From NCBI GenBank assembly GCA_039630545.1, contig JBCNUU010000006.1, forward strand, positions 17,543-81,542: DNA of 64,000 nt, read 5' to 3'. This DNA comes from Endomicrobiia bacterium (GTDB taxonomy: Bacteria > Elusimicrobiota > Endomicrobiia > DTEH01). Positions 23,080 through 40,225 of the stretch are shown in pieces; position 1 is the first letter of the stretch; each line of letters starts with the position of its first letter. Both the position numbers and the translations under genes were made by a program. The notes beneath the pieces are model-generated. The model worked only from the letters and a program-made list of their open reading frames with translations, did not search any database and was not told where the DNA came from.

Positions 23080-23110
23080 ACTTTCTCCTCCGTTGGTTTT
23101 AAGACTAAAA

Positions 23111-23186
23111 CGGGCTCGACGGGATTTGAACCCGCGATCTCTGGCTTGACAGGCCAGCGTGTTGAACCAGGCTACACCACGAGCCC
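23111..23186 (-). tRNA. tRNA-Asp (GTC)
   Basis: Manual cloverleaf: acceptor GGGCTCG/CGAGCCC, anticodon loop CTGTCAA, T-loop TTCAAAT, G73 discriminator; GC-rich island in AT-rich DNA; CCA not encoded. Confidence 0.85.
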
Positions 23187-23199
23187 ACCACCCAAAATA

Positions 23200-23271
23200 T
23201 GGGCGGTAGAGGATTTGAACCTCTGACCTTCCGGGTGTAAACCGGGCGCTCTCCCGCTGAGCTAACCGCCC
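23200..23271 (-). tRNA. tRNA-Val (TAC)
   Basis: Manual cloverleaf: acceptor GGGCGGT/ACCGCCC, anticodon loop TTTACAC, T-arm AGAGG-TTCAAAT-CCTCT. Ends placed by hand, +/-2 nt. Confidence 0.8.
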
Positions 23272-23305
23272 TTGTTATTTAATCAATCAAATAAAAACTT
23301 TCCTG

Positions 23306-23380
23306 GGTGGTTGACGGGACTTGAACCCGCAACAACCTGGGCCACAGCCAGGTGCTCTATCCAGTTGAGCTACAACCACC
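23306..23380 (-). tRNA. tRNA-His (GTG) with encoded G-1
   Basis: Manual cloverleaf: extra 5-prime G pairing with C73, anticodon loop CTGTGGC, T-loop TTCAAGT. Confidence 0.82.
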
Positions 23381-23408
23381 ACAAAACAAACCTTTTTCAA
23401 ATTCAAAA

Positions 23409-23482
<74 letters not shown>

Positions 23483-23489
23483 ATTAAAA

Positions 23490-23562
23490 TGAGCCCGGAG
23501 AGATTCGAACTCTCGACACCCGGCTTAAAAGGCCGGTGCTCTACCGACTGAGCTACGGGCCC
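23490..23562 (-). tRNA. tRNA-Lys (TTT)
   Basis: Manual cloverleaf: acceptor GGGCCCG/CGGGCTC (one G-U), anticodon loop CTTTTAA, T-loop TTCGAAT. Confidence 0.82.
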
Positions 23563-23585
23563 TTTTTTTATCAAAATTTTTACTC

Positions 23586-23657
23586 AGCCGGCGAAGGGAT
23601 TTGAACCCCCGACCTGACGCTTACAAGGCGCCTGCTCTACCACTGAGCTACGCCGGC
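23586..23657 (-). tRNA. tRNA-Thr (TGT)
   Basis: Manual cloverleaf: acceptor GCCGGCG/CGCCGGC, anticodon loop CTTGTAA, short variable arm (so not Tyr), T-loop TTCAAAT. Confidence 0.78.
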
Positions 23658-24996: not shown

Positions 24997-25233
24997 CTAT
25001 AGAGGATAAACCTCTACTATCTTTTTCTGTTTAGTAAGATTTTTAAAAATAACTTTACCAGTAATTTTTGAGTGAATAGTAAAATCTTTAGAAAGATAAG
25101 TATTTCTGCCAGCTAAAAACTTTGTCCCTCTTTGTTTTAAAATAATTTGTCCCGGTTTTACTATTTGTCCTTCATAAATTTTTACGCCAAGATATTTTGG
25201 ATTACTATCTCTTCCATTAACAACATGTGCCAT
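24997..25233 (-). CDS. rpmA: 50S ribosomal protein L27
   Basis: 78 aa; NGRDSNPKYLGVK...RGTKF matches the L27 signature. Confidence 0.92.
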   Translation of the reverse strand: MAHVVNGRDSNPKYLGVKIYEGQIVKPGQIILKQRGTKFLAGRNTYLSKDFTIHSKITGKVIFKNLTKQKKIVEVYPL

Positions 25234-25251: not shown

Positions 25252-26385
25252 CTATTCAATTATAGTCTTATCATAGTTTAATATCTGAGAACTACCTTCT
25301 TCTGAAAACCATAAAAATTTGTTATCTATATAAAAACTTGAAATGTTTTTGTTTGCCAAAAAACTTAATTTAAAAGAATTTGATATTTCTTTGAGTCCTT
25401 TAAGCATATAAAGATTATAATCATTATCTAAAATCCATATTTTGTTTTTATAAGAAGACGCATAAATTGTATTTTTTATCAGATAAGAAAATTTTTCTAC
25501 AATTCTATTTAAATCTTTATCATAAAGTATGACTTCTTTGGCTTTATTATTAAACACTAAAATATTTCCTCTATAAGCTACAATACATATTGGCTCAATT
25601 TGAGATAAATCAAGTACTTTAAGCAAAATATTTTTATTTTTTATTATCGCATATTTGTAAATTTTTTTATTCCAGCCATCTAAAATATACAAAAAATTAG
25701 ATATAAAACAAACAGAAGTAGGTACTATATTATCTTTAGCAAATTTAAAAGAAGTTACCAATAATAAAAAATCACCTTTCATTTTATAAAATGCTACTTC
25801 TTGAGAAGACCAACTGCTTAATACAAGTTTATTATCAATTTTATTTATAGAGGAAATAGTTTCTAATGTAGTGTCATAGATCTTTGGGATTGGAATTTTT
25901 TCTTTTGAAATAAAATTTTTATAAAAAAATAAAACACCCACACTAACAACAAAAATTCCACCAAAAATAAATAAAAAATTTTTTATTTGAAAATTTAATT
26001 TAAAACCTAAAGATTGAAGATGTTGGATTTCTGCTTCATGAGATTTAACAATCTGTAGATTATCAACTGGCATTTGAGAAGAGATTGTTTTGTTTTCTTT
26101 TGAAAGAATACTTATTTTTGTTAACAGCTCATTTAAATTTTTTTGAGCCTCAAAATATCTTGGATTGAGCCTGAGTGCTTTTTCAAATTCCATCCTTGCT
26201 TCTTCTAAAAAACCCTTTTTCGCTAGAGCTTTTCCTAAAGAGTTATGAACATCTGCGTAGTCAGCTCCATATTCTATTGCTTTTTTATATTCCTCTATGG
26301 CTATATCTAACTCTCCAGTAGCTTCAAAAACTCTTCCACGATAATAATGCCTCATCGCATCAAATGAAACATCATATTTAGACAT
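25252..26385 (-). CDS. TPR-repeat membrane protein (N-terminal TPR, one TM helix, C-terminal beta-rich domain)
   Basis: 377 aa; TPR-like AIEEYKKAIEYGADYADVHNSLGKALAKKGFLEEARMEFEKALRLNP; TM FLFIFGGIFVVSVGVLFFY. Confidence 0.6.
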   Translation of the reverse strand: MSKYDVSFDAMRHYYRGRVFEATGELDIAIEEYKKAIEYGADYADVHNSLGKALAKKGFLEEARMEFEKALRLNPRYFEAQKNLNELLTKISILSKENKTISSQMPVDNLQIVKSHEAEIQHLQSLGFKLNFQIKNFLFIFGGIFVVSVGVLFFYKNFISKEKIPIPKIYDTTLETISSINKIDNKLVLSSWSSQEVAFYKMKGDFLLLVTSFKFAKDNIVPTSVCFISNFLYILDGWNKKIYKYAIIKNKNILLKVLDLSQIEPICIVAYRGNILVFNNKAKEVILYDKDLNRIVEKFSYLIKNTIYASSYKNKIWILDNDYNLYMLKGLKEISNSFKLSFLANKNISSFYIDNKFLWFSEEGSSQILNYDKTIIE

Positions 26386-26397
26386 AAGTTTTTCTCC

Positions 26398-27570
26398 TTA
26401 AGCTGGAAATTCTAAAGTTACAACTGTTCCTTTATTAAATACAGAGGTTATATCTATTTTAGCATCGAATAATTTTAAATACCACTTTGCTTTAAACAAT
26501 CCTATACCAAAATGTCCCTGTTCAAATTTTGTGGTAAAAAACAATTCAAAAACTTTTGGCAATAAATGTTCAGGTATTCCACAACCATTATCTTCTATCA
26601 TTATTCTTTTAGACAACTCAGAGGAATATAACCTGATAGTTATTCTGTTGCCTGTAAGCTGTAAAAATGCTTCTAATGAATTTTGAATTATCTCAGAAAT
26701 AATATCTATTAAAATTTGAAAATCTGCTTCTACAATAAACTCTACATCTGGCGACAAAATTTCTTGTACAACTTCTACATTTTTAAAAGAAATTTCATTT
26801 TGAAATTTATTTAAAACAGAAACTAAAACTGATTTTAAATCTACTTTCTGGATATTTATAGCAGTTGGAGGTTTTAAGCGTTCAGATGCAGTACGAATTA
26901 TATCTCTTATTCTATATATCTCTTTCTGTACTAATGAAATTTTTTTAAAAGAAGGATGGCCATCTATTTCATCTTTTACTAAATTAAAAGCTTCATCTAT
27001 GATTCCAATTGGGTTTCTAAAATATCTTAAACATTCATTCATACAAGTAGTCAACAATTTCATATGTGACAACACATACTCAATTTTATCCTGTTTTATG
27101 ACTTCTTTAAGAGATTTTTCTTTTTTAGAAATGCTTTCTATTTCATTTTTTAAATTTTTATTTTCTGCCTCAAGTTCTGTTATTTTTTTTATAAGTTCTA
27201 AAAAAGATTTATCCTGTTGAACAGACAAAGCTGAAACTTTAGCTATCTGTTGTTCTTGTGTAGATTTAATTTGTTCATATTTTGCAATTATGTCTTCCAT
27301 TTCTTTTTGTAATTTTTGAATTATTTTCTCTTTTTCTTGTAGAATTGTTTCATAACCTTTTTTTATTGTTTCAAGTAACATATTTTGAACTTCAGAGAAA
27401 AAAGATGGAGATACAACGCCAGATGATATAATCTGTGGTTGAATATTTAAAATTTGTGTTGAGATGTTATCTTTTTTATTTTGTATTTCTTCAGTAAGTT
27501 TTTTTATTCTTTCACGAATTTTTGTTATTTTTTCTTTTTCTTGTTGTGATAGTTTTTCTAAATCTTTCAT
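26398..27570 (-). CDS. Histidine-kinase-like protein (coiled-coil N-terminus, C-terminal HATPase_c), no TM segment, no adjacent response regulator
   Basis: 390 aa; GHKL ATPase motifs (IEDNGCGIP, FTTKFEQGHFGIGL); long heptad-like N-terminal region. Confidence 0.7.
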   Translation of the reverse strand: MKDLEKLSQQEKEKITKIRERIKKLTEEIQNKKDNISTQILNIQPQIISSGVVSPSFFSEVQNMLLETIKKGYETILQEKEKIIQKLQKEMEDIIAKYEQIKSTQEQQIAKVSALSVQQDKSFLELIKKITELEAENKNLKNEIESISKKEKSLKEVIKQDKIEYVLSHMKLLTTCMNECLRYFRNPIGIIDEAFNLVKDEIDGHPSFKKISLVQKEIYRIRDIIRTASERLKPPTAINIQKVDLKSVLVSVLNKFQNEISFKNVEVVQEILSPDVEFIVEADFQILIDIISEIIQNSLEAFLQLTGNRITIRLYSSELSKRIMIEDNGCGIPEHLLPKVFELFFTTKFEQGHFGIGLFKAKWYLKLFDAKIDITSVFNKGTVVTLEFPA

Positions 27571-27575
27571 AGGGT

Positions 27576-28922
27576 TTATGGTATCTCAAGCACACTTCCA
27601 GGAACTAATTGCCCCCTTATGATTTTTTCTTTGTTTGCTTCATAAATTTTTCTCCATTGGGAAGCATCTCCATAGTATTTTTCAGCTAATTTTGGTAAAG
27701 TGTCACCCTCAACAACAGTATGATATCTTTTTTTGGGAATCGTAACAGGTTGTGGTTGTGATGGTTTTGGTTTTTCTTCAATTCTTTTTGTTTCGGCTTC
27801 TTTAAGTTTTTTTTCTAATTCTTCTATTTTTTTTAACAACTCCTCTTGAAGAAGTATTTGCTGAGACTGCAAAATTTGTGGTTGTTCTTTTTTTTCAACT
27901 TCTAACTTAGAAGATAACATTTTAAGTTCTTCTTCAAGCTTTTGTTTTTCTAAAAGAAGTTTTTCATATTCTTTTTTTGAAATCTTTTCTTCTTCAACTT
28001 CTACAGGAAAAAATTTATAACTTAAAGAAATACACTGTTGTCCACCTGTGTCAATTTTATTTATCAAAGAAAACTTATAACCATAGTTAAATGTTATTCT
28101 AGAAGTATATAAACCAAAACCTAAAGAAATACTGTTGTAATCTTTGTTTCCATAACATATACCAAAGGATGGAGTAAATTTTAATTTTTTGTTAAAGAAT
28201 AACATCTTGTATTCAAACACTAAGGAGACAAAATAATCCGTCAAAGAAGAAAATTCAAATTTTATATCAGGTAGTATTTTTATATTTTTATAATTGTATC
28301 TATATCCAAAACTCATCCTTAATGGCATTTTCTCTTCAGTATATAAACCTATAGATGGCTGTAGTATATTGTCTATTGTAAATGCTCCTGTATGAATTTC
28401 ATTAAACATATATAAACTACCTAATGAAAATGAAAAATAAGATATTTCTTTACTTTTTAAAAATACAGGATTGTTTTTTATATACTCATCAAGAGTATAG
28501 GCTTCTTTGTCATATGTAAGCTTTAATCCAAAAGCTATCTTTGAGTTGATTTCTTTTAGTTGTCTACCGTAAGACAGCAGGATTTTGTTTTTAATGTACC
28601 AATCTGTAATTCCAAATTGATTAAATCCTAAACCTAAACTTCCACCCAGAAATTTCTGTGTAACTGCTAAACTATTATTAATAAATTTAGTTCCATCTGT
28701 CAAGTTAGGATAAATGAGGTTATAAGTAACAACCACTTCAGCTACTTTTATGTTCCATAAACCAGAAGGGTTTAAAAACATACATCCTGCTGAACCATCT
28801 TCAGCAGCTGGTTCTAACTTTCTTAAGTTCTCAGCAGAAAAATTTTCAGAAGGAGAATATCCACATAAAAAGTTGTAGATAAACAAAAAAACGACTATTA
28901 TTGTTCTATTTAAATACTTCAT
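27576..28922 (-). CDS. Secreted barrel-like protein with C-terminal coiled coil and LysM domain (putative outer-membrane to peptidoglycan tether)
   Basis: 448 aa; signal peptide MKYLNRTIIVVFLFIYNFLCG, about 300 aa of alternating aromatic/hydrophobic beta-like segments, charged coiled coil (EKLLLEKQKLEEELK...), C-terminal LysM YHTVVEGDTLPKLAEKYYGD. Confidence 0.65.
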   Translation of the reverse strand: MKYLNRTIIVVFLFIYNFLCGYSPSENFSAENLRKLEPAAEDGSAGCMFLNPSGLWNIKVAEVVVTYNLIYPNLTDGTKFINNSLAVTQKFLGGSLGLGFNQFGITDWYIKNKILLSYGRQLKEINSKIAFGLKLTYDKEAYTLDEYIKNNPVFLKSKEISYFSFSLGSLYMFNEIHTGAFTIDNILQPSIGLYTEEKMPLRMSFGYRYNYKNIKILPDIKFEFSSLTDYFVSLVFEYKMLFFNKKLKFTPSFGICYGNKDYNSISLGFGLYTSRITFNYGYKFSLINKIDTGGQQCISLSYKFFPVEVEEEKISKKEYEKLLLEKQKLEEELKMLSSKLEVEKKEQPQILQSQQILLQEELLKKIEELEKKLKEAETKRIEEKPKPSQPQPVTIPKKRYHTVVEGDTLPKLAEKYYGDASQWRKIYEANKEKIIRGQLVPGSVLEIP

Positions 28923-31900
28923 TTTGCTACAATTATTGTCCCAGTAAATGTTTTATTACCAACTTTTATTTTATAAATATAAACACCTTTTGGCACAAAG
29001 TTTCCGTTGGTATCTTTCCCATCCCAGGTAAGTTCTACACCTTCTAATTTTAACCTGGCAATATATCTTAAGTTTAAATCATAAACTTCACCTTCAGGTG
29101 TAAACAAAGTAGGATTGAAAATCACAAAATGAATTTTGTTGTCTTGTGACGCTGTTGGTGTAAAGATTTTTTTTGGATAAATATTTGTAATCACAGGTTC
29201 TTGAGTTGAAATGACTTTTCTTACTACATATTCTCCTGTAGACCTTAAAGTACATCTCAAAATACTTTTTTGTTCATCATAAAAACTTGGAACAAGCACA
29301 TATTCAATATCATTATTAAAAAATACTAAAGGTTTTACTTTAACTAAATTTTTTTCTTCCACGAAATTATCGGATGAATAATCTTCATTTTCTTTCTGAA
29401 GAAAAATTTCTAAGTTTATTGGCTGTTTAAACTTATAGGAGACAGGTTTATTATTTCTAACAAGTTCTAATTTATATTTCATAAATGTACTGAAATTAAT
29501 ACTTTCATTTTCTTCAACAGGTACTGTTGTAATGTTAAGTTTATAGCCATAAAATGAAATTTCTTCTTCTACACCTTTTGGAATAACGATCTTCATTGTA
29601 TCTAAAAAGGGAATAATTCTACTTCCCGAATTAAAGGAAGAAACTACATCTGACGGTAAACTTTCTATTCCAGTTTCTGTTACAACCTTTATTAAATAAT
29701 AATAAGTGTTAAAATAAATATAGTCGGTAAATGTCGTAGCCGGAGTTGAGACAAATTTATAAAAAGACGAAGGGTTTAAAACACCTTCATAGTCCTGACT
29801 GCGATAAATGTTATAGCCTTTAATGTCGTCAGCTAAAGAACCATCTGTATATGTTTGCACTTTTTCCCATGATAAAATAAATCTATAATCAGGATTATCA
29901 TAATTTATTTTTTCTATTCTTGAAGGAATATTTATTACTCCTATAAAGAAAGTATTTTTAGTAGGTTCACTAAAAATATCTTCCTCATCTATTGCTATCA
30001 CTTCATAATAATATGTCATATTCTGTGTTAAGTTTATTTGGGGCTGATATGAATTAGATGAAACTTCTACATCAATTACTGGAGAATAAAGATTTTTATT
30101 GGAAAAAATTTTGAGTCTATATTTTTTAATGCTAGTGTTGGGTTCCGGGTGTGGTAAAGGTTCCCATTCAAAAACAGGTCTTCTTAATAAAATTTCTCCT
30201 TCGGGATTTAAAATTTTTACACCTTGAGGTCTAAAATATGGCACATAAAAGCTTAAAACTGAAGAATCTCTCCACAGGCCTCTTTTATCATAAGCGCGTA
30301 TTTTCCAATAATAAGTTGAATTCATTAAGAGCTTAAAATTGATTGTGTAGACAGTAACTGAAGATGAAACCACAATGGATGTTGTAATGTTTAGCTGAAA
30401 ATTTTGTTTTGTTGAAAGTTTAATTTCATAATAGTTTATACCATCGTCTTTATCAAAACCTATCTCCCATATAAACTGAGGCTTTCTTGTAAAAACTGTA
30501 CTTGACGGGGAAAATATTCCAAATGGTTCTGGTGGATCGTTTTGGGAGTCAATGAATAAATAATTAGTTGTAGATATTTTTTGACTAACTTGATTTTTAG
30601 CAACTACATACCAGAAATATGTTGTGTTTTCTTTTAAGGTTGAAGTAGAATATGAAATAGGTTGTAGTTCTTTGTAGTTTTCATAAGGACCTAAAAAAAA
30701 TTCTACTTTATTGGGTGGTTTTCCTAGTTCACCTATGTATAACTCATACGTTATCTGTTTCCACCACTCTGTAATATTTGCGGGTGCCCAAATTAGATTT
30801 AAAGGTTGTGTTGCCCGAGTAAAAGTATAGGATGAACCTGGACTAAGTAGATAAATATCATCGGGAGGATCATCCTGTAGGTCTACTATAAACATGTAAG
30901 ATGAAATGCTTTTTGTATAGTTTGATTTTGTATCATAAGCTTCAACCCACCAGTAGTAGGCTGCATTTTCTTTTAATTTTGATAAATCTATATTATAACT
31001 TAAAGTTGTACTTCCTAAAATAACTATATATGTTGAATCACCTACTATATAGCTTTCTGCTGATGAAATTACTACTTTATATTGTTCTACATAATCCTTT
31101 GGATCAGAGTCATAACTTTGTTGCCAGCTTAAATTTATATATCTTTCTTTTATTACTCCAGAAGTGATATTGAGATAAAAACTTTTTGGATTTTCTTCAT
31201 AAAAATTTACCCAGAAAGAACCAATAGTAGAACTTGAAATCCCTCCATAGTTATCATAAGCCACCACCTGCCAGAAATATTGAGTGTTTTCTTTAAAATC
31301 AAAAAAGATTTCTGCCTCTATAGTTTCTCCTATTTGTTTTCCTATGTTTGTTCCGGCAGAAAATTTTTCATAAACAGAAAAATTTTGAAAACTTGAAATA
31401 TATAAAGTATAGTATAATATATCTCTATCCAAATCTCCATTGTTTTTAAACTTAAATTTAAAAGAAGATAAAACTATTTCATCATTTAAAGGATATACTA
31501 ATTCAAAATTGTTTGGATCAAAATTTGTAGTTTGAAAATAAAATGTAGAGTAGGGTGTCTCAAAATTTCCAAATTTATCATAAGCTTTTACATACCAGTA
31601 ATAAGTGGTCCTAGGATGCAGATCAAAATTTAAAATAAATTTTGTATCTGAAGAATAAAAAGTATAATAAGAAGAAAAATTAGCAAAACTGCTTATTATA
31701 ATTACATAACTTGAAACAAAAGAATCATAGTTGTCTGGATCGTATACTTGTTCCCAGTAAAATGTTGGTCTAAAAGTTTTAATTCCTGATGCAAAAGGAT
31801 GACTTATGCTTACTCCAGGAGACAAAAGATTAAACTTTAATGGCCTCTGGTTTGAAACTATAAATCTTCCGGTACTTAAAGCGACACCATATGGTTTTAC

Positions 31901-34669
31901 TAAGTATGGTTGCGATGTAGAAGGATTTAGTGCAAAATCCCATTCATTTTTACTCCAGCAATGAACCTGCCAGTAGTAAGTTACAGAAGGGCAAAGCTTA
32001 GAAAGTGTAAACATAACTGTAGTAGAACTTATATCTGAATTTTCTAAATATACATTTATTTTCCAAAAAGGTAAAGTATACCAATGATCGGAATTCTGAA
32101 TTAAGACCGTAGAAATATTTAAAAAATAATGTTTTACAGAATCAAAAGGATCTGGATCTTTAGGTTTTGACCATTCAAAATATATTGGCCCTTCCAGAGA
32201 TGCTGGATTTACTATACCGGTAGGTGTAATTATGGTATAGTTAGAAGGTGGTTCTTTAATAAAATCTATACAAAAACTTAAAGGATTTTCATTTAAAGGT
32301 GGAGAAAATGTTTCTGTTGAACTCCATATCCAGTATAGATTTTGAGGAGCATCAATTGCTCTAATCCTGAAAAAATATGTGGTATTTTCTACAAGCTCAA
32401 GTACATATCCTTCTTGGGTACCTTCTTCTATGTTTTTTACTATAACTGTGGAAACAAAAAAATCCCATTTTTTAAACCAGTCATCATATTCAAATGGTGG
32501 AGCATTAAATGTCGGATTTGTAACATATCTCCAGGCATTTGGTTCTGTTTTTGGTTCACGCCAGCTTGAAATAAAAACTGCATATTCATATACTCCGTCT
32601 TCAGGATCAGGATCCCATGTAGGCTGCCAACATAAAACTATAGGAGTTGATTTAGCAATAAATATCTTTTTACCATCAACAACTTTTTCCGTTACAGGAT
32701 AATAGGTTGTATCATCCAGTATTACTTTATAGAAAGTTACATTTTTTATTAAAGAAATCATACCAGTAGGGAAAAACACATCAAAACTACAAACAGGTTC
32801 ATCTATTTGGTTTACCCAAAAACTTGCAACTGGAGTTTGAGTAGAAAGTTGACTAAATCCAAAAGGAGCTCCTGAATCATATGCTACAACATACCAGTAT
32901 ATTTTTTGGTTCTCATAAAAAAGCAATTCATTAGAAGAAGGTTGAGTATATGGTGTCATCAAAAAATATGAATTAGTAAGTAAACCTTCCTGTGGAATTG
33001 TAATGTAGCTTTCAAAATTTTCTGAAGTAGAAAGATAAATTTTATAACCAACAACATAATCAAAAGGATCTATCTCATATGCATCTTTAAAATCAAAAAT
33101 TAAACTACCATCTTTAGTATGCACTACAGTATTTGAAGGTGAAATTAAAGGATTTAAAGGAAACTTTGGAGCTGTATTTTGAAAGTTTACTGTAAACCTA
33201 AAAATAGCAGTGGTTGAAGAAGCATTTTCTGAATCATATACAGAAAGACTCCAGAAGTATGTGATATTGTCTTGTAAGTCCTTAACAACTATAGATGTAG
33301 CAGAAGTAGACACTTCAACCAAAATCGCTCCTAAAGTGTTACCAATGGTATAGCTTGAGATTTTTAATGTGTAGGTAGATATATAATCTCCGTAATCAGA
33401 ATCGTAACTGTTATCACTGAAAGAGAAACCAGCATGCCACACTGCATCAGACCAATCAAATTTTACTGTTGAGGAAGAAATAATGGTTGAAGTGGTATTT
33501 TTTACTGGATCATATACAAAGTGTTTGTGAGGATAAAAACATGAAGGAGAAGAATTAAAAGCTCTGCAAAAAGGAGATGAAGAAGAAATTAAAGACCAGT
33601 TTAATTTTTCATCTGCTATTTTTATAGAAAAATAATAAGGACTACTATTAACTAGATTATTTACTACTATATTTGTAGAAATATAAGGAGTAATGTTTAC
33701 ATTAGTTATAAAAAAAACTTCCGTAGCTTGGTTCCATAAAGTTTCATTATATATTTTTTGGGTGTGATATTTTATCTTATAACTTCCTGTATAGGTAGAA
33801 GAATTGTATAAGAAACCATCCTCATATGAGTCTTCATATGGAAAAACCCAACTAAGTTTTACATGTCTAAATCCAGCTGAAACAAAAATTGATGTAATAC
33901 TTTTTGGAGGTGAAATATCAGGCTGAGCCCACATTGTTGTTTTGTTAGACATCTCAGAAAGATTACCTAGTTCATCTTCTGCCCAAATTCTTAAATAATA
34001 AGTTATCCCACCAGATAATCCTGTAATCAAATATCCTGCAGACCATATATAAGATGGGTAAGAAAAAGTAGATATTACAATCTGGGCAGCAGAAGTACTC
34101 CAATTGTTAAAATACTCTATATCTGTATACTGAATATAATAATAACCAGAAAGAATACCGGTCATCGTATTGTTGATATAATCATCACTTCCTTGAAATT
34201 TTAATTCAACTTCTCCCTCATGAACTCCGGGATTTGCTTCTATAATCTCTACATAAGGCAACCATAGAGTCATCCAGCCGGTTGCAATATTTGATAAGGA
34301 TAAATCACCCTGAGATCCTGAAGAAATAAATACAACAAAATAAAATGTTGTAAACCTGCTTAAAGAATTCTCAAGCACAAAATTATCTAACCCTGTAAGC
34401 ACAAACAATTGTTGTTGAAGAGGATTGACGGGACCCGTGGATACTACTATGGAAGAAGAAGTTGACCAGTTAACTTCATAAAAACTACTGTATTTTATGT
34501 AGTATGCACTTCCTTCAGGTAACACATCCGGACCAGGATAAGTCCATATTAGCTTTACACTGCCTTCTTTTAGTTCATCAATTCCTGAAATCGAAAATAA
34601 ATCGGAAACAGGATTAGGTTGAGCAAAAACTTTAAAAGTAAATAAACTTAAAAATAAAACAATATACAT
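28919..34669 (-). CDS. Giant secreted protein with tandem Fn3-like repeats and a C-terminal FlgD-Ig-like (sorting-type) domain
   Basis: 1916 aa; signal peptide MYIVLFLSLFTFKVFAQ; recurring TxYYWxVxAYD-type repeat ends (YFWYVVA, YYWKIRAYD, YFWQVVAYDNYG, YYWWVEAYD, YYWYVKAYDKFG); C-terminus LTWDGKDTNGNFVPKGVYIYKIKVGNKTFTGTIIVAK. Confidence 0.8.
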   Translation of the reverse strand: MYIVLFLSLFTFKVFAQPNPVSDLFSISGIDELKEGSVKLIWTYPGPDVLPEGSAYYIKYSSFYEVNWSTSSSIVVSTGPVNPLQQQLFVLTGLDNFVLENSLSRFTTFYFVVFISSGSQGDLSLSNIATGWMTLWLPYVEIIEANPGVHEGEVELKFQGSDDYINNTMTGILSGYYYIQYTDIEYFNNWSTSAAQIVISTFSYPSYIWSAGYLITGLSGGITYYLRIWAEDELGNLSEMSNKTTMWAQPDISPPKSITSIFVSAGFRHVKLSWVFPYEDSYEDGFLYNSSTYTGSYKIKYHTQKIYNETLWNQATEVFFITNVNITPYISTNIVVNNLVNSSPYYFSIKIADEKLNWSLISSSSPFCRAFNSSPSCFYPHKHFVYDPVKNTTSTIISSSTVKFDWSDAVWHAGFSFSDNSYDSDYGDYISTYTLKISSYTIGNTLGAILVEVSTSATSIVVKDLQDNITYFWSLSVYDSENASSTTAIFRFTVNFQNTAPKFPLNPLISPSNTVVHTKDGSLIFDFKDAYEIDPFDYVVGYKIYLSTSENFESYITIPQEGLLTNSYFLMTPYTQPSSNELLFYENQKIYWYVVAYDSGAPFGFSQLSTQTPVASFWVNQIDEPVCSFDVFFPTGMISLIKNVTFYKVILDDTTYYPVTEKVVDGKKIFIAKSTPIVLCWQPTWDPDPEDGVYEYAVFISSWREPKTEPNAWRYVTNPTFNAPPFEYDDWFKKWDFFVSTVIVKNIEEGTQEGYVLELVENTTYFFRIRAIDAPQNLYWIWSSTETFSPPLNENPLSFCIDFIKEPPSNYTIITPTGIVNPASLEGPIYFEWSKPKDPDPFDSVKHYFLNISTVLIQNSDHWYTLPFWKINVYLENSDISSTTVMFTLSKLCPSVTYYWQVHCWSKNEWDFALNPSTSQPYLVKPYGVALSTGRFIVSNQRPLKFNLLSPGVSISHPFASGIKTFRPTFYWEQVYDPDNYDSFVSSYVIIISSFANFSSYYTFYSSDTKFILNFDLHPRTTYYWYVKAYDKFGNFETPYSTFYFQTTNFDPNNFELVYPLNDEIVLSSFKFKFKNNGDLDRDILYYTLYISSFQNFSVYEKFSAGTNIGKQIGETIEAEIFFDFKENTQYFWQVVAYDNYGGISSSTIGSFWVNFYEENPKSFYLNITSGVIKERYINLSWQQSYDSDPKDYVEQYKVVISSAESYIVGDSTYIVILGSTTLSYNIDLSKLKENAAYYWWVEAYDTKSNYTKSISSYMFIVDLQDDPPDDIYLLSPGSSYTFTRATQPLNLIWAPANITEWWKQITYELYIGELGKPPNKVEFFLGPYENYKELQPISYSTSTLKENTTYFWYVVAKNQVSQKISTTNYLFIDSQNDPPEPFGIFSPSSTVFTRKPQFIWEIGFDKDDGINYYEIKLSTKQNFQLNITTSIVVSSSVTVYTINFKLLMNSTYYWKIRAYDKRGLWRDSSVLSFYVPYFRPQGVKILNPEGEILLRRPVFEWEPLPHPEPNTSIKKYRLKIFSNKNLYSPVIDVEVSSNSYQPQINLTQNMTYYYEVIAIDEEDIFSEPTKNTFFIGVINIPSRIEKINYDNPDYRFILSWEKVQTYTDGSLADDIKGYNIYRSQDYEGVLNPSSFYKFVSTPATTFTDYIYFNTYYYLIKVVTETGIESLPSDVVSSFNSGSRIIPFLDTMKIVIPKGVEEEISFYGYKLNITTVPVEENESINFSTFMKYKLELVRNNKPVSYKFKQPINLEIFLQKENEDYSSDNFVEEKNLVKVKPLVFFNNDIEYVLVPSFYDEQKSILRCTLRSTGEYVVRKVISTQEPVITNIYPKKIFTPTASQDNKIHFVIFNPTLFTPEGEVYDLNLRYIARLKLEGVELTWDGKDTNGNFVPKGVYIYKIKVGNKTFTGTIIVAK

Positions 34670-34700: not shown

Positions 34701-35195
34701 TTACTTATTAAAATATACTAATTTTTTAAGGATTATTTCAACACAAATTTTAATTTCTTCTGCTGTATTAAGATAAATACTTTCCGGCTGACCAATTGGA
34801 TCAAAAATTTCTGGCTGTGAAAAAAATCCCGCAAATTCTTTTAAGAGATAAACTTTATCAAAAAATTTCTTAAAATTCAGATAGATGAAATCCATTTGGC
34901 TTTTTTCCATTACAAAAACTATATCGGAAATTTCCAATAAAGGAGAATTTATTTTTGTAGGTATATGTTTTGAAAGGTCTTTTTCTTTGATATTATAGAT
35001 TTTAAAAAGTTTATTAATACTTTCTGGAATTTTAAAGTTTTGCTGTGCTATTACTCCGCAAGAGTAGACTTTAATATTATCTATATTATATTTAGCCAGA
35101 AGATGTAAAGTATATCCTTCAGCAAAAACACTTCTAAATACATTTCCATTACACACATAAAGTATTGTTTTTATTTCTTTCATAAGTTTATTCAA
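34701..35195 (-). CDS. Low-molecular-weight protein tyrosine phosphatase
   Basis: 164 aa; P-loop CX5R (VCNGNVFRS) and DP motif (IFDPIG). Confidence 0.85.
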   Translation of the reverse strand: MNKLMKEIKTILYVCNGNVFRSVFAEGYTLHLLAKYNIDNIKVYSCGVIAQQNFKIPESINKLFKIYNIKEKDLSKHIPTKINSPLLEISDIVFVMEKSQMDFIYLNFKKFFDKVYLLKEFAGFFSQPEIFDPIGQPESIYLNTAEEIKICVEIILKKLVYFNK

Positions 35196-37389: not shown

Positions 37390-38466
37390 CTATAAACCAG
37401 ATTTCTGCAGTAATTTTTTAAGTTCTTCCGGATCAGAAGAAGCACTTATGGCTTCTTCCAGACTAATTAATCTTCTTTGATACAAATCTGCTAGTGCTTG
37501 ATTCATTGTTTGCATTCCAAATTTTGCACCAGTTTGAATTAAAGTAAATATTTGTTCTGGCTTTCCTTCACGAATTAAGTTCCTTACAGCAGGTGTAGCA
37601 ACTAACACCTCACAAGCTAAAACTCTACCTTTGCCCGAAATATGCAAAAGAAGCTGCTGTGCCAAAACTGCTTGTAGTACAAAAGAAAGCTGAACTCTTA
37701 CTTGCTGCTGTTGATGAGGTGGAAAAACATCCACTATTCTGTTGACAGTAGAAACAGCATCTGTAGTATGAAGAGTTGCAAAAACCAAATGCCCCGTCTC
37801 GGCTATAGTAAGTGCCGCAGAAATTGTTTCTAGATCGCGCATTTCTCCTATCAAAATAATATCAGGATCTTCTCTTAACACATACTTTAATGCTGTAGCG
37901 AAACTTTCTGTATCTGAACCAACTTCTCTTTGGTTTATTATACAGTTTTTATGATGAAACAGATATTCTATAGGATCTTCTATTGTAATAATATGGGCAT
38001 TTCTATGTTCATTAATAAAATTTATCATAGAAGCTAATGTTGTTGTTTTCCCGGACCCCGTGGGACCTGTTACCAAAATTAAACCCCTTGGAAGATCTAC
38101 AAGTTGAGAAACAATTTTTGGAAGTCTTAATTCTTCAAAAGTAGGAGGAGTCGAAGGAATAGCTCTCAAAGCTGCAGCAACTGCACCCTTTTGACGAAAA
38201 ACATTCATTCTTATTCTTCCTATATCTCTTACTCCAAAAGATACATCCAACTCATTAAGTGTTTCAAACCTTTCTTTCTGTTTATCTGTAAGAACAGAAT
38301 AAATTAGTTTTTGACACATTTCTGGGGTAAGTTTACCAAAAGAGGTAGGTACTAACTTACCATCAACTCTTAACATAGGAGGTAATCCAGCAGTAATATG
38401 TAAATCTGAAGCTTTTTGTTCATGCATTAAATACAACAAATTTTCCATACTTAAAGACATCTCCAT
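37390..38466 (-). CDS. pilT: Type IV pilus retraction ATPase PilT
   Basis: 358 aa; Walker A GPTGSGKTTT, Asp box, Walker B DIILIGEMRD, His box, PilT-type GMQT motif. Confidence 0.92.
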   Translation of the reverse strand: MEMSLSMENLLYLMHEQKASDLHITAGLPPMLRVDGKLVPTSFGKLTPEMCQKLIYSVLTDKQKERFETLNELDVSFGVRDIGRIRMNVFRQKGAVAAALRAIPSTPPTFEELRLPKIVSQLVDLPRGLILVTGPTGSGKTTTLASMINFINEHRNAHIITIEDPIEYLFHHKNCIINQREVGSDTESFATALKYVLREDPDIILIGEMRDLETISAALTIAETGHLVFATLHTTDAVSTVNRIVDVFPPHQQQQVRVQLSFVLQAVLAQQLLLHISGKGRVLACEVLVATPAVRNLIREGKPEQIFTLIQTGAKFGMQTMNQALADLYQRRLISLEEAISASSDPEELKKLLQKSGL

Positions 38467-38492
38467 ATATCAATCCTCCCTTTAAAAATAAT

Positions 38493-40208
38493 TTAAACAC
38501 CTGTTTCTTCACTAACAGTAACTCTTAAAACTTCCTCTATAGTTGTGATTCCAGCAAGCATTTTTCTTATTGCAGATTTTCTTAAAGTAGACATTCCATT
38601 TCTTATAGCTACTTTCTTTATTTCTATATCTGGTGTGTTTTTCAAAATCATTTCTCTTATTTCATCTGTTATCTCCATAATTTCATAAATACCTATCCTT
38701 CCTTTATATCCATTATTACATTTTTTACACCCAGCACCTTTATATAGCACTACTTTTTTTTGTCTTTGAACCATATCATCAGTAACTCCTAAAGGATACA
38801 ACTTCTCTACAGGAACCTCATATGGCTGTTTACATTCTGAACATATTTTCCTTACTAATCTTTGAGCTTCAACTAAAGTAAGTGTGGAAGAAATTAAAAA
38901 TGGATCTATCCCCATATTTACAAGACGCGTTACAGCAGAAGGTGCATCGTTTGTATGAAGAGTAGAAAATACTAACTGACCTGTTAAAGCTGCCTGAATT
39001 GCTATTCTTGCTGTCTCTGTATCACGAATTTCACCTACTAAAATTATATCAGGTGCTTGTCTTAAAAAAGCTCTTAAACCAGAAGCAAATGTTAATCCAA
39101 CTTCAGGATTCACATTTACCTGTGTTATTCCATCTAAAAGATATTCGACAGGATCCTCTATTGTTAATATATTGACTTCTGGACGATTTAAAGTTGAAAG
39201 AGCAGAATATAAAGTAGTTGATTTTCCAGAACCGGTAGGTCCTGTAATCAAAATTAAACCAAAAGGCAACCTAATTGTCCTTAAAAAAATCTCTAGCTGT
39301 TCTGGTTCAAAACCCAATTTTTCAAGATCCAAACACAAGGCAGAAGAATCGAGGATTCTTAAAACTGCTTTTTCTCCATATACCACAGGAAGTATTGAAA
39401 CGCGAAAATCTATCTCTCTTTCATCTATGCGCATTTTTATTCTACCATCTTGAGGTTTTCTTGTTTCTGTAACATCTAGCTTTGACATAATTTTTATTCT
39501 TGCTATCAAGGCATTATAAACATGATGAGGAAAAAATGCTTCCTCTTTTGCTACTCCATCAATCCTGTAGCGCAAACGACATTTCTTTTCAAAGGGTTCA
39601 AGGTGTATATCAGAAGCTCTTTTGCGAACTGCTGTAATAATAATATTATTTGCAAGCTTAACTATAGGTTCTTCTTCCGCAAGTTCCCTTACTTCAACTG
39701 TTTCTGGTATTGGCTCGACTTCTATTGAAGTTTCTAATTTCTCAAGTTCATTTATTTCTTTCTCTATGTGTGTTGTTTCTTCTTTTAAAAGATACTTTCT
39801 TATATTCTCCTTAATATCTTTGAGAGTGGCAACTACCGGCTTAACATTAAGTCCTGTAGAAAGTTTAATGTCATCTATTATAAACAAATTATAAGGATCA
39901 GGAAGAGCCACCGTTAAAGTATTCGTTTTTTTATCAAAACTTATAGGGAAAACATTATGTTTTTCTATAAACGTCCTAGGCAGTAAATTAATTACAGATT
40001 CGTCTATTTCAAGTTCTGAAATATAAACAAAATCCAAATTTTGTTGTCTTGCTAAAAAAGACAAAAGAACATCTTCAGTGATATATCCTAAATTTATCAA
40101 AGTCTGCCCTAATTTTTCACCAGTTTGTTTTTGTAAAGTCAAAGCTTCTTCAAGTTGCTTTTGTGTTATAATATTTGCTGAAATTAAAATTTCACCTAAT
40201 TTTTGCAT
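38493..40208 (-). CDS. pilB: PilB/GspE-family assembly ATPase (paralog 1)
   Basis: 571 aa; N-terminal GSPII_E_N-like domain, Walker A GPTGSGKSTT, tetracysteine motif CSECKQ...CKKC. Confidence 0.9.
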   Translation of the reverse strand: MQKLGEILISANIITQKQLEEALTLQKQTGEKLGQTLINLGYITEDVLLSFLARQQNLDFVYISELEIDESVINLLPRTFIEKHNVFPISFDKKTNTLTVALPDPYNLFIIDDIKLSTGLNVKPVVATLKDIKENIRKYLLKEETTHIEKEINELEKLETSIEVEPIPETVEVRELAEEEPIVKLANNIIITAVRKRASDIHLEPFEKKCRLRYRIDGVAKEEAFFPHHVYNALIARIKIMSKLDVTETRKPQDGRIKMRIDEREIDFRVSILPVVYGEKAVLRILDSSALCLDLEKLGFEPEQLEIFLRTIRLPFGLILITGPTGSGKSTTLYSALSTLNRPEVNILTIEDPVEYLLDGITQVNVNPEVGLTFASGLRAFLRQAPDIILVGEIRDTETARIAIQAALTGQLVFSTLHTNDAPSAVTRLVNMGIDPFLISSTLTLVEAQRLVRKICSECKQPYEVPVEKLYPLGVTDDMVQRQKKVVLYKGAGCKKCNNGYKGRIGIYEIMEITDEIREMILKNTPDIEIKKVAIRNGMSTLRKSAIRKMLAGITTIEEVLRVTVSEETGV

Positions 40209-40225
40209 ATAAGTTTAAATAAAAG

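What the first reader, a model, noticed from the sequence alone, without database searches (positions are those of the whole stretch)
25252..34669. Surface module: giant Fn3-repeat protein coupled to barrel-coiled-coil-LysM protein, with kinase-like and TPR partners
Four co-directional genes with gaps of 12 bp or less: TPR membrane protein, cytoplasmic coiled-coil histidine-kinase-like protein, barrel-coiled-coil-LysM protein, and a 1916-aa secreted repeat protein ending in a FlgD-Ig-like domain (LTWDGKDTNGNFVPKGVYIYKIKV). The giant gene stop and the LysM gene start overlap as ATGA at 28919-28922, implying coupled translation. Inference: a dedicated export/anchoring module for a large adhesin or S-layer-like protein, perhaps with the C-terminal domain as sorting signal and the barrel protein as its outer-membrane partner. 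No canonical T9SS, T1SS or T5SS genes are visible here.
Basis: partly seen in the sequence, partly recalled or inferred. Interest (0 to 1): 0.7.

Follow-up and report, generated by a model that had tools for sequence, protein, structure and literature searches.

The report
T9SS-like adhesin–barrel anchoring module, Elusimicrobiota
Four tightly packed genes in an Endomicrobiia genome encode a giant surface protein, the outer-membrane barrel that probably carries and anchors it, and an inner-membrane/cytoplasmic pair derived from a two-component system; the first two are distant relatives of type IX secretion parts, which are described only from Bacteroidota and their relatives.

Summary
Four minus-strand genes lie at exactly the stated coordinates, with gaps of 12 and 5 bp and an ATGA overlap.

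The new features are:
- The host phylum, Elusimicrobiota.
- The LysM fusion, which stands where PorE stands in Bacteroidota.
- Two constant partner genes.

The "kinase" has an intact ATP-binding domain, but Arg replaces the phospho-acceptor His. The "TPR protein" is TPR–TM–five-bladed β-propeller. In sister modules the same positions hold a His-containing kinase and a REC–TM–propeller protein, or a single fused protein.

The four-gene order is conserved down to 25–31% identity and occurs as paralogous and tandem copies. Whether the T9SS core exists in these genomes could not be tested. None lies in the window ORFs I scanned or in the annotated flanks of seven related loci.

Verdict: new variant of a known kind, interest about 0.6.

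The parts
28919..34669 (-). Giant secreted surface protein (1916 aa): Sec signal peptide (aa 1-16, cleavage predicted VFA|QPNP), about 13 Fn3/Ig-like repeats, variable region at aa 1700-1800, C-terminal sorting domain
   Evidence: Orthologues are 41-68% identical in seven Endomicrobia loci; the more distant L007 homologue is about 30% identical.
28922..29206 (-). C-terminal domain of the giant (aa ~1822-1916): a diverged T9SS type B CTD (CHU_C/TIGR04131-like) that also resembles FlgD_ig and the type A CTD
   Evidence: Window CTD: CHU_C E 0.0074, Por_Secre_tail 0.0019, both below cutoff. All 21 homologous CTDs hit CHU_C (best 2.4e-13) and 17/21 hit TIGR04131 (best 8.2e-11). It is the best-conserved part of the giant, 0.65 against 0.51 mean identity.
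27576..28922 (-). Outer-membrane carrier/anchor protein (448 aa): signal peptide, 14-strand PorV/PorP-like β-barrel (aa 62-303; nt 28014-28739), periplasmic coiled coil (aa 316-381; nt 27780-27977), LysM (aa 399-448; nt 27579-27728)
28919..28922 (-). ATGA overlap of the giant's stop and the barrel gene's start
   Evidence: No obvious Shine-Dalgarno sequence precedes the barrel gene, which is compatible with coupled translation (inference).
26398..27570 (-). Cytoplasmic coiled-coil, histidine-kinase-like ATPase (390 aa). The DHp-like helix has Arg182 (nt 27025-27027) where the phospho-acceptor His should be. The HATPase_c domain (aa 286-389; nt 26404-26715) keeps the N, G1 (DNGCGIP), F and G2 boxes.
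   Evidence: Alignment to ThkA 3a0r pairs 'lRYFRNPI' with 'aHEIRNPI'. Arg is conserved in all 10 orthologues.
25252..26385 (-). Bitopic inner-membrane protein (377 aa): cytoplasmic TPR (aa 8-102; nt 26080-26364), linker, TM helix (aa 133-159; nt 25909-25989), periplasmic five-bladed β-propeller (aa 168-372; nt 25270-25884)
   Evidence: AF2 pLDDT 86.1. Foldseek matches five-bladed propellers, TMt 0.70. In sister modules the propeller is homologous to that of REC-TM-propeller proteins.
34701..35195 (-). Low-molecular-weight phosphatase (LMWPc, CX5R motif VCNGNVFRS), 31 bp upstream of the giant. It is a conserved neighbour in Endomicrobia only, and whether it belongs to the module is uncertain.
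   Evidence: Pfam LMWPc 2.8e-13. Present upstream in L002, L004/L012, L008 and L011; absent in L006, L007, L013 and L014.

Best explanation
This is a cell-surface display and anchoring module of T9SS ancestry, joined to a degenerate two-component pair.

Proposed steps:
1. Sec exports the 1916-aa Fn3/Ig-repeat protein to the periplasm. The signal peptide is read directly from the sequence.
2. Its C-terminal ~95 residues, a diverged type B T9SS sorting domain, are recognised by the product of the next gene. This step is inferred from homology, gene order and co-divergence.
3. That product is a 14-strand barrel of the PorV/PorQ/PorP-SprF family. It acts as cognate carrier and surface anchor, as SprF does for SprB and PorP does for PG1035.
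4. The barrel's periplasmic C-terminal tail is a coiled coil ending in LysM. It pins the complex to peptidoglycan, the role PorE (OmpA_C) plays for PorP in Bacteroidota. This gives a static rather than a gliding adhesin or coat (inference).
5. Genes 3 and 4 form the inner half. Gene 4 is a TM-anchored protein whose periplasmic five-bladed β-propeller faces the barrel's periplasmic part or the CTD, and whose cytoplasmic TPR domain faces gene 3. Gene 3 is a cytoplasmic coiled-coil, ATP-binding, His-less kinase-like protein.

Sister modules carry a genuine His-containing kinase plus REC-TM-propeller, or one fused protein. Others carry a coiled-coil protein with no ATPase at all. I therefore read this pair as a signalling or scaffolding device that reports or controls assembly of the surface complex, not as the motor for export. 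The route across the outer membrane (a T9SS translocon elsewhere in the genome, or something else) is not established.
For: Cargo CTD:
- All 21 aligned CTDs hit Pfam CHU_C (best 2.4e-13) and 17/21 hit TIGR04131.
- The paralogues keep the K(I/F)(I/F)TPNxDGxND motif, while the window has FTPTASQDNKIHF.
- The CTD is the most conserved segment of the giant.

Barrel:
- 4/27 close homologues hit PorP_SprF.
- 15/26 barrels hit the PorV/PorQ family (best 2.1e-23) and 6/26 hit PorP/SprF. The orthologue in L014 matches PorP/SprF over model positions 2-292 of 292.

Known rule: porP/sprF-like genes lie directly downstream of type B cargo genes and are needed for their secretion and anchoring. F. johnsoniae also has five operons that combine a PorE homologue, a type B cargo and a SprF-like gene (PMC12618676; PMC9143113).

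Co-conservation:
- The order giant, barrel, HK-like, TPR holds in L002, L004, L006, L007, L008, L011, L012 and L014, and in truncated contigs.
- Paralogous or tandem modules occur in L006, L007, L013, L014, L028, L033 and L050.
- The CTD and barrel identity matrices correlate (Mantel r 0.88, p 2e-4).

Inner pair:
- Arg182 replaces His.
- Gene 4 has a TM helix and a propeller.
- L015 and L018 have a REC domain (2e-31) joined to TM and propeller, next to a coiled-coil HK; L015's retains the H-box His (FVHRMRN).
- L019-L024 have a 690-aa fusion of coiled coil, REC-like domain, TM and propeller.

Precedents: the periplasmic C-tail of SprF is its coupling element (PMC12635249), and the CTD of PorA signals to PorY (PMC12152298).
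Against: - The window's own CTD and barrel do not reach any curated cutoff. The CTD scores 16.8 bits against 27. The barrel has no direct PorP/PorV hit, and the best relative scores 83.4 against 90. Membership therefore rests on transitive homology and on fold.
- No T9SS core gene was found among the 25 flanking window ORFs I scanned (24 by family search plus rpmA), or among the genes annotated within ±10 kb of the barrel gene in the seven related loci fetched with precomputed Pfam annotation. The literature places T9SS only in Bacteroidota/FCB.
- Many Elusimicrobia loci have barrel-LysM plus REC-like-TM-propeller with no adjacent CTD cargo. The barrel's primary role may therefore be tethering the outer membrane to peptidoglycan.
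- Physical contacts (CTD with barrel, propeller with barrel, TPR with HK-like) were not modelled.
- The CTD/barrel correlation could simply reflect modules duplicating as linked units.
Confidence: 0.6

Rival explanations
1. The four genes are a self-contained secretion and anchoring system that does not need a T9SS. With help from BAM, the PorV/PorP-like barrel both exports and holds the giant. The TM-propeller protein and the GHKL-type ATPase supply energy or gating from the inner membrane. On this reading the cargo-carrier pair in Elusimicrobiota would predate or exist apart from the Bacteroidota T9SS.
For: - No T9SS core gene lies in the scanned window ORFs or in the annotated flanks of related loci.
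- T9SS is reported only from Bacteroidota/FCB (PMC7463736, PMC11205867), and no paper links it to Elusimicrobia.
- The four-part architecture spanning the envelope is conserved and multiplied.
- The family is large, with 590 representatives at E<=1e-30.
- A distant member sits beside FliG-like and MotA/MotB genes.
Against: - A 14-strand barrel is too narrow to pass folded Ig domains, and in Bacteroidota these barrels only collect cargo from SprA.
- Sister modules replace the ATPase with a coiled-coil protein that lacks any ATPase domain, so ATP hydrolysis cannot be essential to the shared function.
- Absence of the T9SS core from the whole genome was not shown.
Confidence: 0.2
2. The barrel-coiled-coil-LysM protein is chiefly a structural tether between the outer membrane and peptidoglycan, working like OmpA, Pal or OmpM. 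The TM-propeller protein is its envelope-integrity partner. The giant protein is an ordinary neighbour or an occasional passenger, not a dedicated client.
For: - The barrel-LysM plus REC-like-TM-propeller pair is the most widely conserved core. In at least 11 Elusimicrobia loci, such as L025, L035 and L039, it occurs with no CTD cargo upstream.
- Endomicrobiaceae lack several classical envelope proteins (PMC11257099).
- The FadL-like fold is generic.
Against: - In every module of the window type and in three other types, a protein bearing a CHU_C-type CTD lies immediately upstream of the barrel gene, often overlapping it.
- The CTD classes and barrel classes match one to one, even for two modules in the same contig.
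- The CTD is the giant's most constrained part.
Confidence: 0.15
3. A split inverse-autotransporter (type Ve-like) system: LysM plus a barrel, with the Ig-repeat passenger encoded as a separate polypeptide.
For: The parts list superficially matches intimin/invasin: LysM, β-barrel and Ig-like repeats.
Against: - The barrel has 14 strands, not 12.
- LysM is C-terminal here.
- The passenger is a separate Sec substrate with a T9SS-type CTD.
Confidence: 0.03

Closest known systems
Type B CTD cargo with cognate PorP/SprF-like carrier (SprB-SprF, Fjoh_3952-Fjoh_3951, PG1035-PorP) of the Bacteroidota T9SS
   Same: - A large repeat-rich surface protein with a Sec signal and a CHU_C-type C-terminal domain.
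- The barrel gene lies immediately downstream.
- A 14-strand barrel of the PorV/PorP superfamily.
- A periplasmic C-terminal tail acts as the coupling element.
- Multiple paralogous cargo/carrier pairs occur per genome.
   Different: - The host phylum is Elusimicrobiota.
- The sequences fall below the curated family cutoffs.
- The CTD motif is degenerate.
- The barrel tail is a coiled coil plus LysM, not twin cysteines or a PorE contact.
- No T9SS core has been shown.
- Two extra conserved partner genes are present.
PorE (PG1058) and the PorE-like genes in F. johnsoniae type B operons
   Same: Provides peptidoglycan anchoring for a PorP-cargo complex. PorE also combines TPR and β-propeller domains, the two domains of gene 4 here.
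   Different: - PorE is a periplasmic outer-membrane lipoprotein with an OmpA_C domain.
- Here peptidoglycan binding (LysM) is fused to the barrel.
- Here TPR and propeller sit on opposite sides of an inner-membrane helix.
- The only sequence match to PorE is a weak TPR hit (E 0.013).
PorX/PorY two-component system with PorA CTD as periplasmic ligand
   Same: A T9SS-type CTD is coupled to a two-component signalling pair. Sister modules (L015, L018) carry a true HK and a REC protein next to the cargo and barrel.
   Different: - In the window the kinase has lost its His and REC is replaced by TPR.
- The periplasmic sensor is a β-propeller attached to the REC/TPR protein, not to the kinase.
- The kinase-like protein is soluble.
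PorV (T9SS shuttle) and the FadL family of 14-strand barrels
   Different: PorV serves type A CTDs and has no peptidoglycan-binding tail. FadL is a lipid transporter with no link to cargo.

Membership tests
T9SS type B sorting domain (Pfam CHU_C PF13585 / TIGR04131) | Profile match at the curated cutoff, at the extreme C-terminus | tested here: not met
   Window CTD: CHU_C 16.8 bits against a cutoff of 27 (E 0.0074), with no TIGR04131 hit. Homologues: 21/21 hit CHU_C at E<=1 (best 2.4e-13) and 17/21 hit TIGR04131. The distant L088 cargo passes the cutoff (35.9 against 35). The window CTD is therefore a homologue, but a diverged one.
T9SS type B sorting domain (Pfam CHU_C PF13585 / TIGR04131) | Conserved N-terminal CTD motif (F/I)TPNGDGxND | tested here: inconclusive
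   Paralogous modules keep K(I/F)(I/F)TPNxDGxNDxIxF. The window and its orthologues have FTPTASQDNKIHF; T-P is invariant, while the Asn/Gly/Asp positions vary.
T9SS type B sorting domain (Pfam CHU_C PF13585 / TIGR04131) | A PorP/SprF-like gene directly downstream | tested here: met
   The barrel gene overlaps the cargo stop by 4 nt. The same order holds in every module found.
PorP/SprF - PorV/PorQ outer-membrane carrier family | 14-strand FadL-like β-barrel | tested here: met
PorP/SprF - PorV/PorQ outer-membrane carrier family | Profile match at the curated cutoff (TIGR03519, NF033709, PF11751) | tested here: not met
   The window barrel has no hit. Relatives: PorV_fam up to 83.4 bits against 90; PorP family 33.9 against 90.55. 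PF11751 scores 34.4 against 22.3 for the L007 paralogue, which passes Pfam's cutoff.
PorP/SprF - PorV/PorQ outer-membrane carrier family | Binds its cognate CTD and is required for cargo surface localisation | not testable with these tools
   Only indirect support: Mantel r 0.88 between the CTD and barrel divergence matrices.
Type IX secretion system (whole system) | Core genes SprA/Sov, GldK/L/M/N (PorK/L/M/N), PorU, PorZ and others in the same genome | not testable with these tools
   None among the 29 window ORFs scanned (the four module genes plus 25 others) or in the annotated flanks of related loci.
Type IX secretion system (whole system) | Host in Bacteroidota or the FCB superphylum | tested here: not met
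   The window protein is 100% identical to one from an Endomicrobiia MAG. The homologues whose source records name an organism are almost all Elusimicrobiota/Endomicrobia.
Two-component sensor histidine kinase | HATPase_c with N, G1, F and G2 boxes | tested here: met
   HATPase_c 2.9e-16. NS..E, DNGCGIP, FELFFTTK and GIGL are conserved.
Two-component sensor histidine kinase | Phospho-acceptor His in the DHp H-box | tested here: not met
   Arg182 aligns with the His of ThkA (3a0r). Arg is conserved in all 10 orthologues, and no other His is conserved nearby.
Two-component sensor histidine kinase | Cognate receiver (REC) partner | tested here: not met
   The window's gene 4 has TPR where L015 and L018 have REC (PF00072, 2e-31 and 1e-30).
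Inverse autotransporter (type Ve, intimin/invasin) | 12-strand barrel with LysM and Ig passenger in one polypeptide | tested here: not met

The most novel reading that the evidence does not exclude
Elusimicrobiota have no T9SS translocon or motor. On this reading the four-gene unit is an autonomous, multiply duplicated trans-envelope system. It runs from the CTD cargo to the PorV/PorP-like barrel-LysM, then to the periplasmic β-propeller on an inner-membrane protein, then to the cytoplasmic (pseudo)kinase or coiled-coil protein. It would be either an ancestral form of the cargo-carrier logic later incorporated into the Bacteroidota T9SS, or a new outside-in signalling route in which a giant surface adhesin reports to the cytoplasm through a barrel and a propeller.
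Probability: 0.22. Interest if true: 0.82.

Novelty: new variant of a known kind. Interest (0 to 1): 0.6.

Why it matters
T9SS cargo recognition by CTDs and PorV/PorP-type carriers is treated as a Bacteroidota/FCB speciality. Here the same logic appears in a deep-branching phylum with reduced genomes, and the family is large: 590 representatives at 50% identity clustering.

Three features make it useful:
- It has a different peptidoglycan anchor, a fused LysM.
- It is hard-wired to proteins derived from a two-component system that span the inner membrane.
- If the T9SS core is present, this extends the system's phylogenetic range and supplies natural 'static anchor' variants.

If the core is absent, it shows that the CTD-carrier pair can work without SprA and GldKLMN. 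That would bear on how the T9SS evolved and on how these little-studied bacteria build their surface. The His-to-Arg kinase and the swaps among REC, TPR and degenerate REC also give a compact natural series showing how a signalling pair degenerates into a scaffold.

Tried and rejected
- A profile of the barrel family against PDB sequences matched only LysM and coiled-coil chains.
- hhalign between the N-terminal half of the HK-like protein and the coiled-coil proteins at the same position in sister modules gave 10% probability. Their homology is not shown, so I claim only positional equivalence. The BLAST cluster that merged them was driven by coiled-coil composition and by fusion proteins.
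- A profile search with the CTD alignment in the word-indexed protein database returned only 13 fragments.
- The promoter scan found fewer sites than shuffled sequence, and the terminator scan found no more than shuffles; no terminator lies between the module's genes.
- The afdb50 fold library was unavailable.
- Glutaminyl-cyclase idea: the propeller's best fold matches are five-bladed plant/bacterial-type cyclases, and the window giant's mature N-terminus is Gln. However, identity is only 7-9%, and only 5 of 8 close orthologues start with Gln. I treat this as fold similarity only.
- The PilT and PilB/GspE genes upstream and the SpoIID-TPR gene downstream in some relatives are not consistently syntenic, so I excluded them from the module.
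- Literature searches for T9SS in Elusimicrobia found nothing relevant.
Full report
**Observation**

The window is AT-rich, about 29% GC. It carries four co-directional minus-strand ORFs at exactly the stated coordinates:
- 28919-34669, 1916 aa
- 27576-28922, 448 aa
- 26398-27570, 390 aa
- 25252-26385, 377 aa

The gaps are 5 and 12 bp. The first two genes overlap as ATGA at 28919-28922.

- Giant: Ig_Rha78A_N and fn3 repeats, plus a weak FlgD_ig / type A CTD signal on the quoted C-terminal motif.
- Second protein: LysM.
- Third protein: HATPase_c.
- Fourth protein: TPR.

The giant has 13 Fn3-type 'YYWxVxAxD' motifs and a typical Sec signal peptide. Downstream, the module is bounded by rpmA (L27, 24997-25233) and obg. 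Upstream lies a low-molecular-weight phosphatase gene 31 bp away. An identical copy of the TPR protein is recorded from an Endomicrobiia MAG.

**The cargo's C-terminal domain**

I aligned the last 200 residues of the giant with those of 20 homologous cargo proteins from related loci. The shared C-terminal domain begins K(I/F)(I/F)TPNxDGxND and ends G(V/I)Y(I/V)Y...GT(I/V)(I/V)(V/I)A(K/R).
- All 21 sequences hit Pfam CHU_C, the T9SS type B sorting signal (best 2.4e-13).
- 17 of 21 hit TIGR04131 (best 8.2e-11).
- 20 of 21 also touch the type A model.

The window's own copy is degenerate (FTPTASQDNKIHF) and sub-threshold (CHU_C E 0.0074). Even so, it is the most conserved stretch of the giant among orthologues, 0.65 against 0.51 mean identity, and it follows the least conserved stretch.

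**The barrel**

AlphaFold2 (pLDDT 81.6) gives a 14-strand barrel at residues 62-303, two long helices at 316-381 and a LysM domain at 399-448. Since a β-barrel with an even number of strands has both termini in the periplasm, the coiled coil and LysM are periplasmic.

The window sequence hits no T9SS model directly, but its clear homologues do:
- 4/27 hit PorP_SprF, best 1.6e-8.
- Across 26 barrels from all module types, 15 hit the PorV/PorQ family (best 2.1e-23, 83.4 bits against a cutoff of 90), 12 hit 'PorV2', 7 hit PorV, 7 hit PorQ and 6 hit PorP/SprF.
- The L014 orthologue matches the whole PorP/SprF model, positions 2-292 of 292.

**Comparison with what is known**

In Bacteroidota, a porP/sprF-like gene commonly lies directly downstream of a type B cargo gene. 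The barrel is needed to extract and anchor that cargo. F. johnsoniae has five operons that combine a PorE homologue, a type B cargo and a SprF-like carrier, and these are proposed to form static, cell-wall-anchored complexes (PMC12618676; PMC9143113). SprF's periplasmic C-terminal tail is the element that couples it to a periplasmic partner (PMC12635249).

The first two genes of this module reproduce that logic, with the peptidoglycan-binding function (LysM) fused to the barrel's tail. This part is a variant of a known arrangement.

**Genes 3 and 4**

The kinase-like protein has no signal peptide or TM segment.
- It keeps the ATP-binding boxes.
- HMMER alignment to ThkA puts Arg182 where the phospho-acceptor His belongs.
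- All ten orthologues have Arg there, and no alternative conserved His exists.

It cannot be a canonical histidine kinase.

The TPR protein is modelled at pLDDT 86.1 as TPR (8-102), a disordered linker, a TM helix (133-159) and a 20-strand domain (168-372). That domain superposes best on five-bladed β-propellers, TMt 0.70. Two homologues also carry a precomputed SGL propeller hit.

**Synteny and module variants**

Context look-ups and a scan of one genome per species were analysed with local BLAST and HMMs.

The order giant, barrel, HK-like, TPR-TM-propeller is kept in L002, L004, L006, L007, L008, L011, L012 and L014, and in contig-truncated copies. Identities to the window run down to about 30% (giant), 29% (barrel), 25% (HK-like) and 31% (TPR protein). 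The phosphatase gene is upstream only in the closer Endomicrobia.

The unit also exists in other forms:
- Cargo, barrel-LysM, a ~320-aa coiled-coil protein with no ATPase, then degenerate REC-like-TM-propeller. Seen in L028, L033 and L050, and as the first of two tandem modules in L006, L013, L014 and L007.
- Cargo, barrel-LysM, then one 690-aa fusion of coiled coil, REC-like domain, TM and propeller (L019, L020, L021, L024).
- Cargo, barrel-LysM, coiled-coil HK, then a genuine REC (PF00072, 2e-31)-TM-propeller (L015, L018). L015's HK retains the H-box His; in L018 the REC-propeller gene is on the opposite strand.
- Barrel-LysM plus REC-like-TM-propeller with no adjacent CTD cargo, in many other Elusimicrobia (L022-L063).

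The propeller domains are homologous across these types, with HMM E-values from 1e-17 to 1e-29 to the window family. Homology between the coiled-coil proteins and the window's HK-like N-terminus was not demonstrable.

CTD classes and barrel classes match one to one, even for two modules on one contig (Mantel r 0.88, p 2e-4). This fits cognate pairing, but it would also follow from modules duplicating as linked units.

A profile of the barrel-LysM family finds 590 representatives at E<=1e-30 among 1.84 billion clustered proteins. The few with organism names are Elusimicrobiota.

**Mechanism**

Shown directly:
- The signal peptides.
- The domain architecture and folds.
- The loss of His.
- The gene order and its conservation.
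- The fusion of coiled coil, REC-like domain, TM and propeller in some lineages.

Inferred:
- The CTD docks in or on the barrel.
- The barrel displays and anchors the giant, and is pinned to peptidoglycan by LysM.
- The propeller is periplasmic and TPR or REC is cytoplasmic. REC must meet a cytoplasmic kinase, and the protein has no signal peptide.
- The cytoplasmic coiled-coil or HK-like protein binds gene 4's cytoplasmic domain.

Some modules lack an ATPase altogether, so I consider an energising role unlikely. I favour signalling or scaffolding. There is a precedent in P. gingivalis, where the PorA CTD activates PorY (PMC12152298).

How the giant crosses the outer membrane is unknown. I found no T9SS core gene in the following places:
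- 29 window ORFs: the four module genes plus 25 others. About twenty further ORFs of 120 aa or more were not scanned.
- The annotated flanks of related loci.

I could not scan whole genomes. The literature restricts T9SS to Bacteroidota/FCB (PMC7463736, PMC11205867), and I found no report for Elusimicrobia.

**Verdict**

The finding is real and the four-gene grouping is strongly supported.

The new features are the phylum, the LysM-fused carrier, and the constant coupling to an inner-membrane/cytoplasmic pair derived from a two-component system. I rate it a new variant of a known kind, with interest about 0.6. There is roughly a one-in-five chance that it is an autonomous system independent of T9SS, which would be considerably more interesting.

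Noticed in passing
L088:1255-11288 (JGI metagenome 3300036766, contig Ga0373622_0005811): A distant barrel-family member (842 aa, barrel plus TPR) follows an fn3 cargo that passes the TIGR04131 type B CTD cutoff. It is followed by a 585-aa FliG-like protein, MotA/ExbB and two MotB-plug/OmpA genes. A CTD-cargo/carrier pair therefore sits next to a stator-like motor. The organism is unknown.
   Followed up: partly
L087:1792-15546: A 740-aa barrel-LysM protein lies between a 511-aa FlgD_ig protein and a giant ORF of more than 4512 aa that runs off the locus. This is another module layout, with a very large downstream gene.
   Followed up: no
window 37390-41956 (minus): A PilT-like ATPase and two PilB/GspE-type ATPases with MshEN domains lie in a row, as type IV pilus/T2SS motors. 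They are not syntenic with the module in other genomes.
   Followed up: partly
window 34622-34669 and the N-termini of orthologues: The predicted mature N-terminus of the giant is Gln (VFA|QPNP) in the window and in 4 of 7 close orthologues. The gene-4 propeller's best fold matches are five-bladed plant/bacterial-type glutaminyl cyclases at 7-9% identity. This is probably coincidence.
   Followed up: partly
window 24997-25233 (minus) and 23110-23657: A short rpmA (L27, 78 aa, TIGR00062 3.9e-21) lies directly upstream of obg, followed by a cluster of six tRNA genes (Thr, Lys, Arg, His, Val, Asp).
   Followed up: yes
L018 and L021: Complete cargo/barrel modules occur in contigs binned as a Deltaproteobacteria MAG (L018) and an Ignavibacteria MAG (L021). 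L018 has a coiled-coil HK and a REC-TM-propeller protein; L021 has the fused coiled-coil/propeller protein. Either the module was transferred horizontally or the contigs were mis-binned.
   Followed up: no
window 34701-35195 (minus): An LMW phosphatase with a CX5R loop (VCNGNVFRS) is conserved just upstream of the giant in Endomicrobia. Its position next to a His-less kinase-like ATPase suggests a possible kinase/phosphatase pair, which I did not test.
   Followed up: partly
window 61164-63392 (plus): A 742-aa protein combines RecJ-type DHH/DHHA1/RecJ_OB domains with an inserted RNase_T (DnaQ-like) exonuclease domain. This is an unusual fusion of two exonucleases.
   Followed up: no
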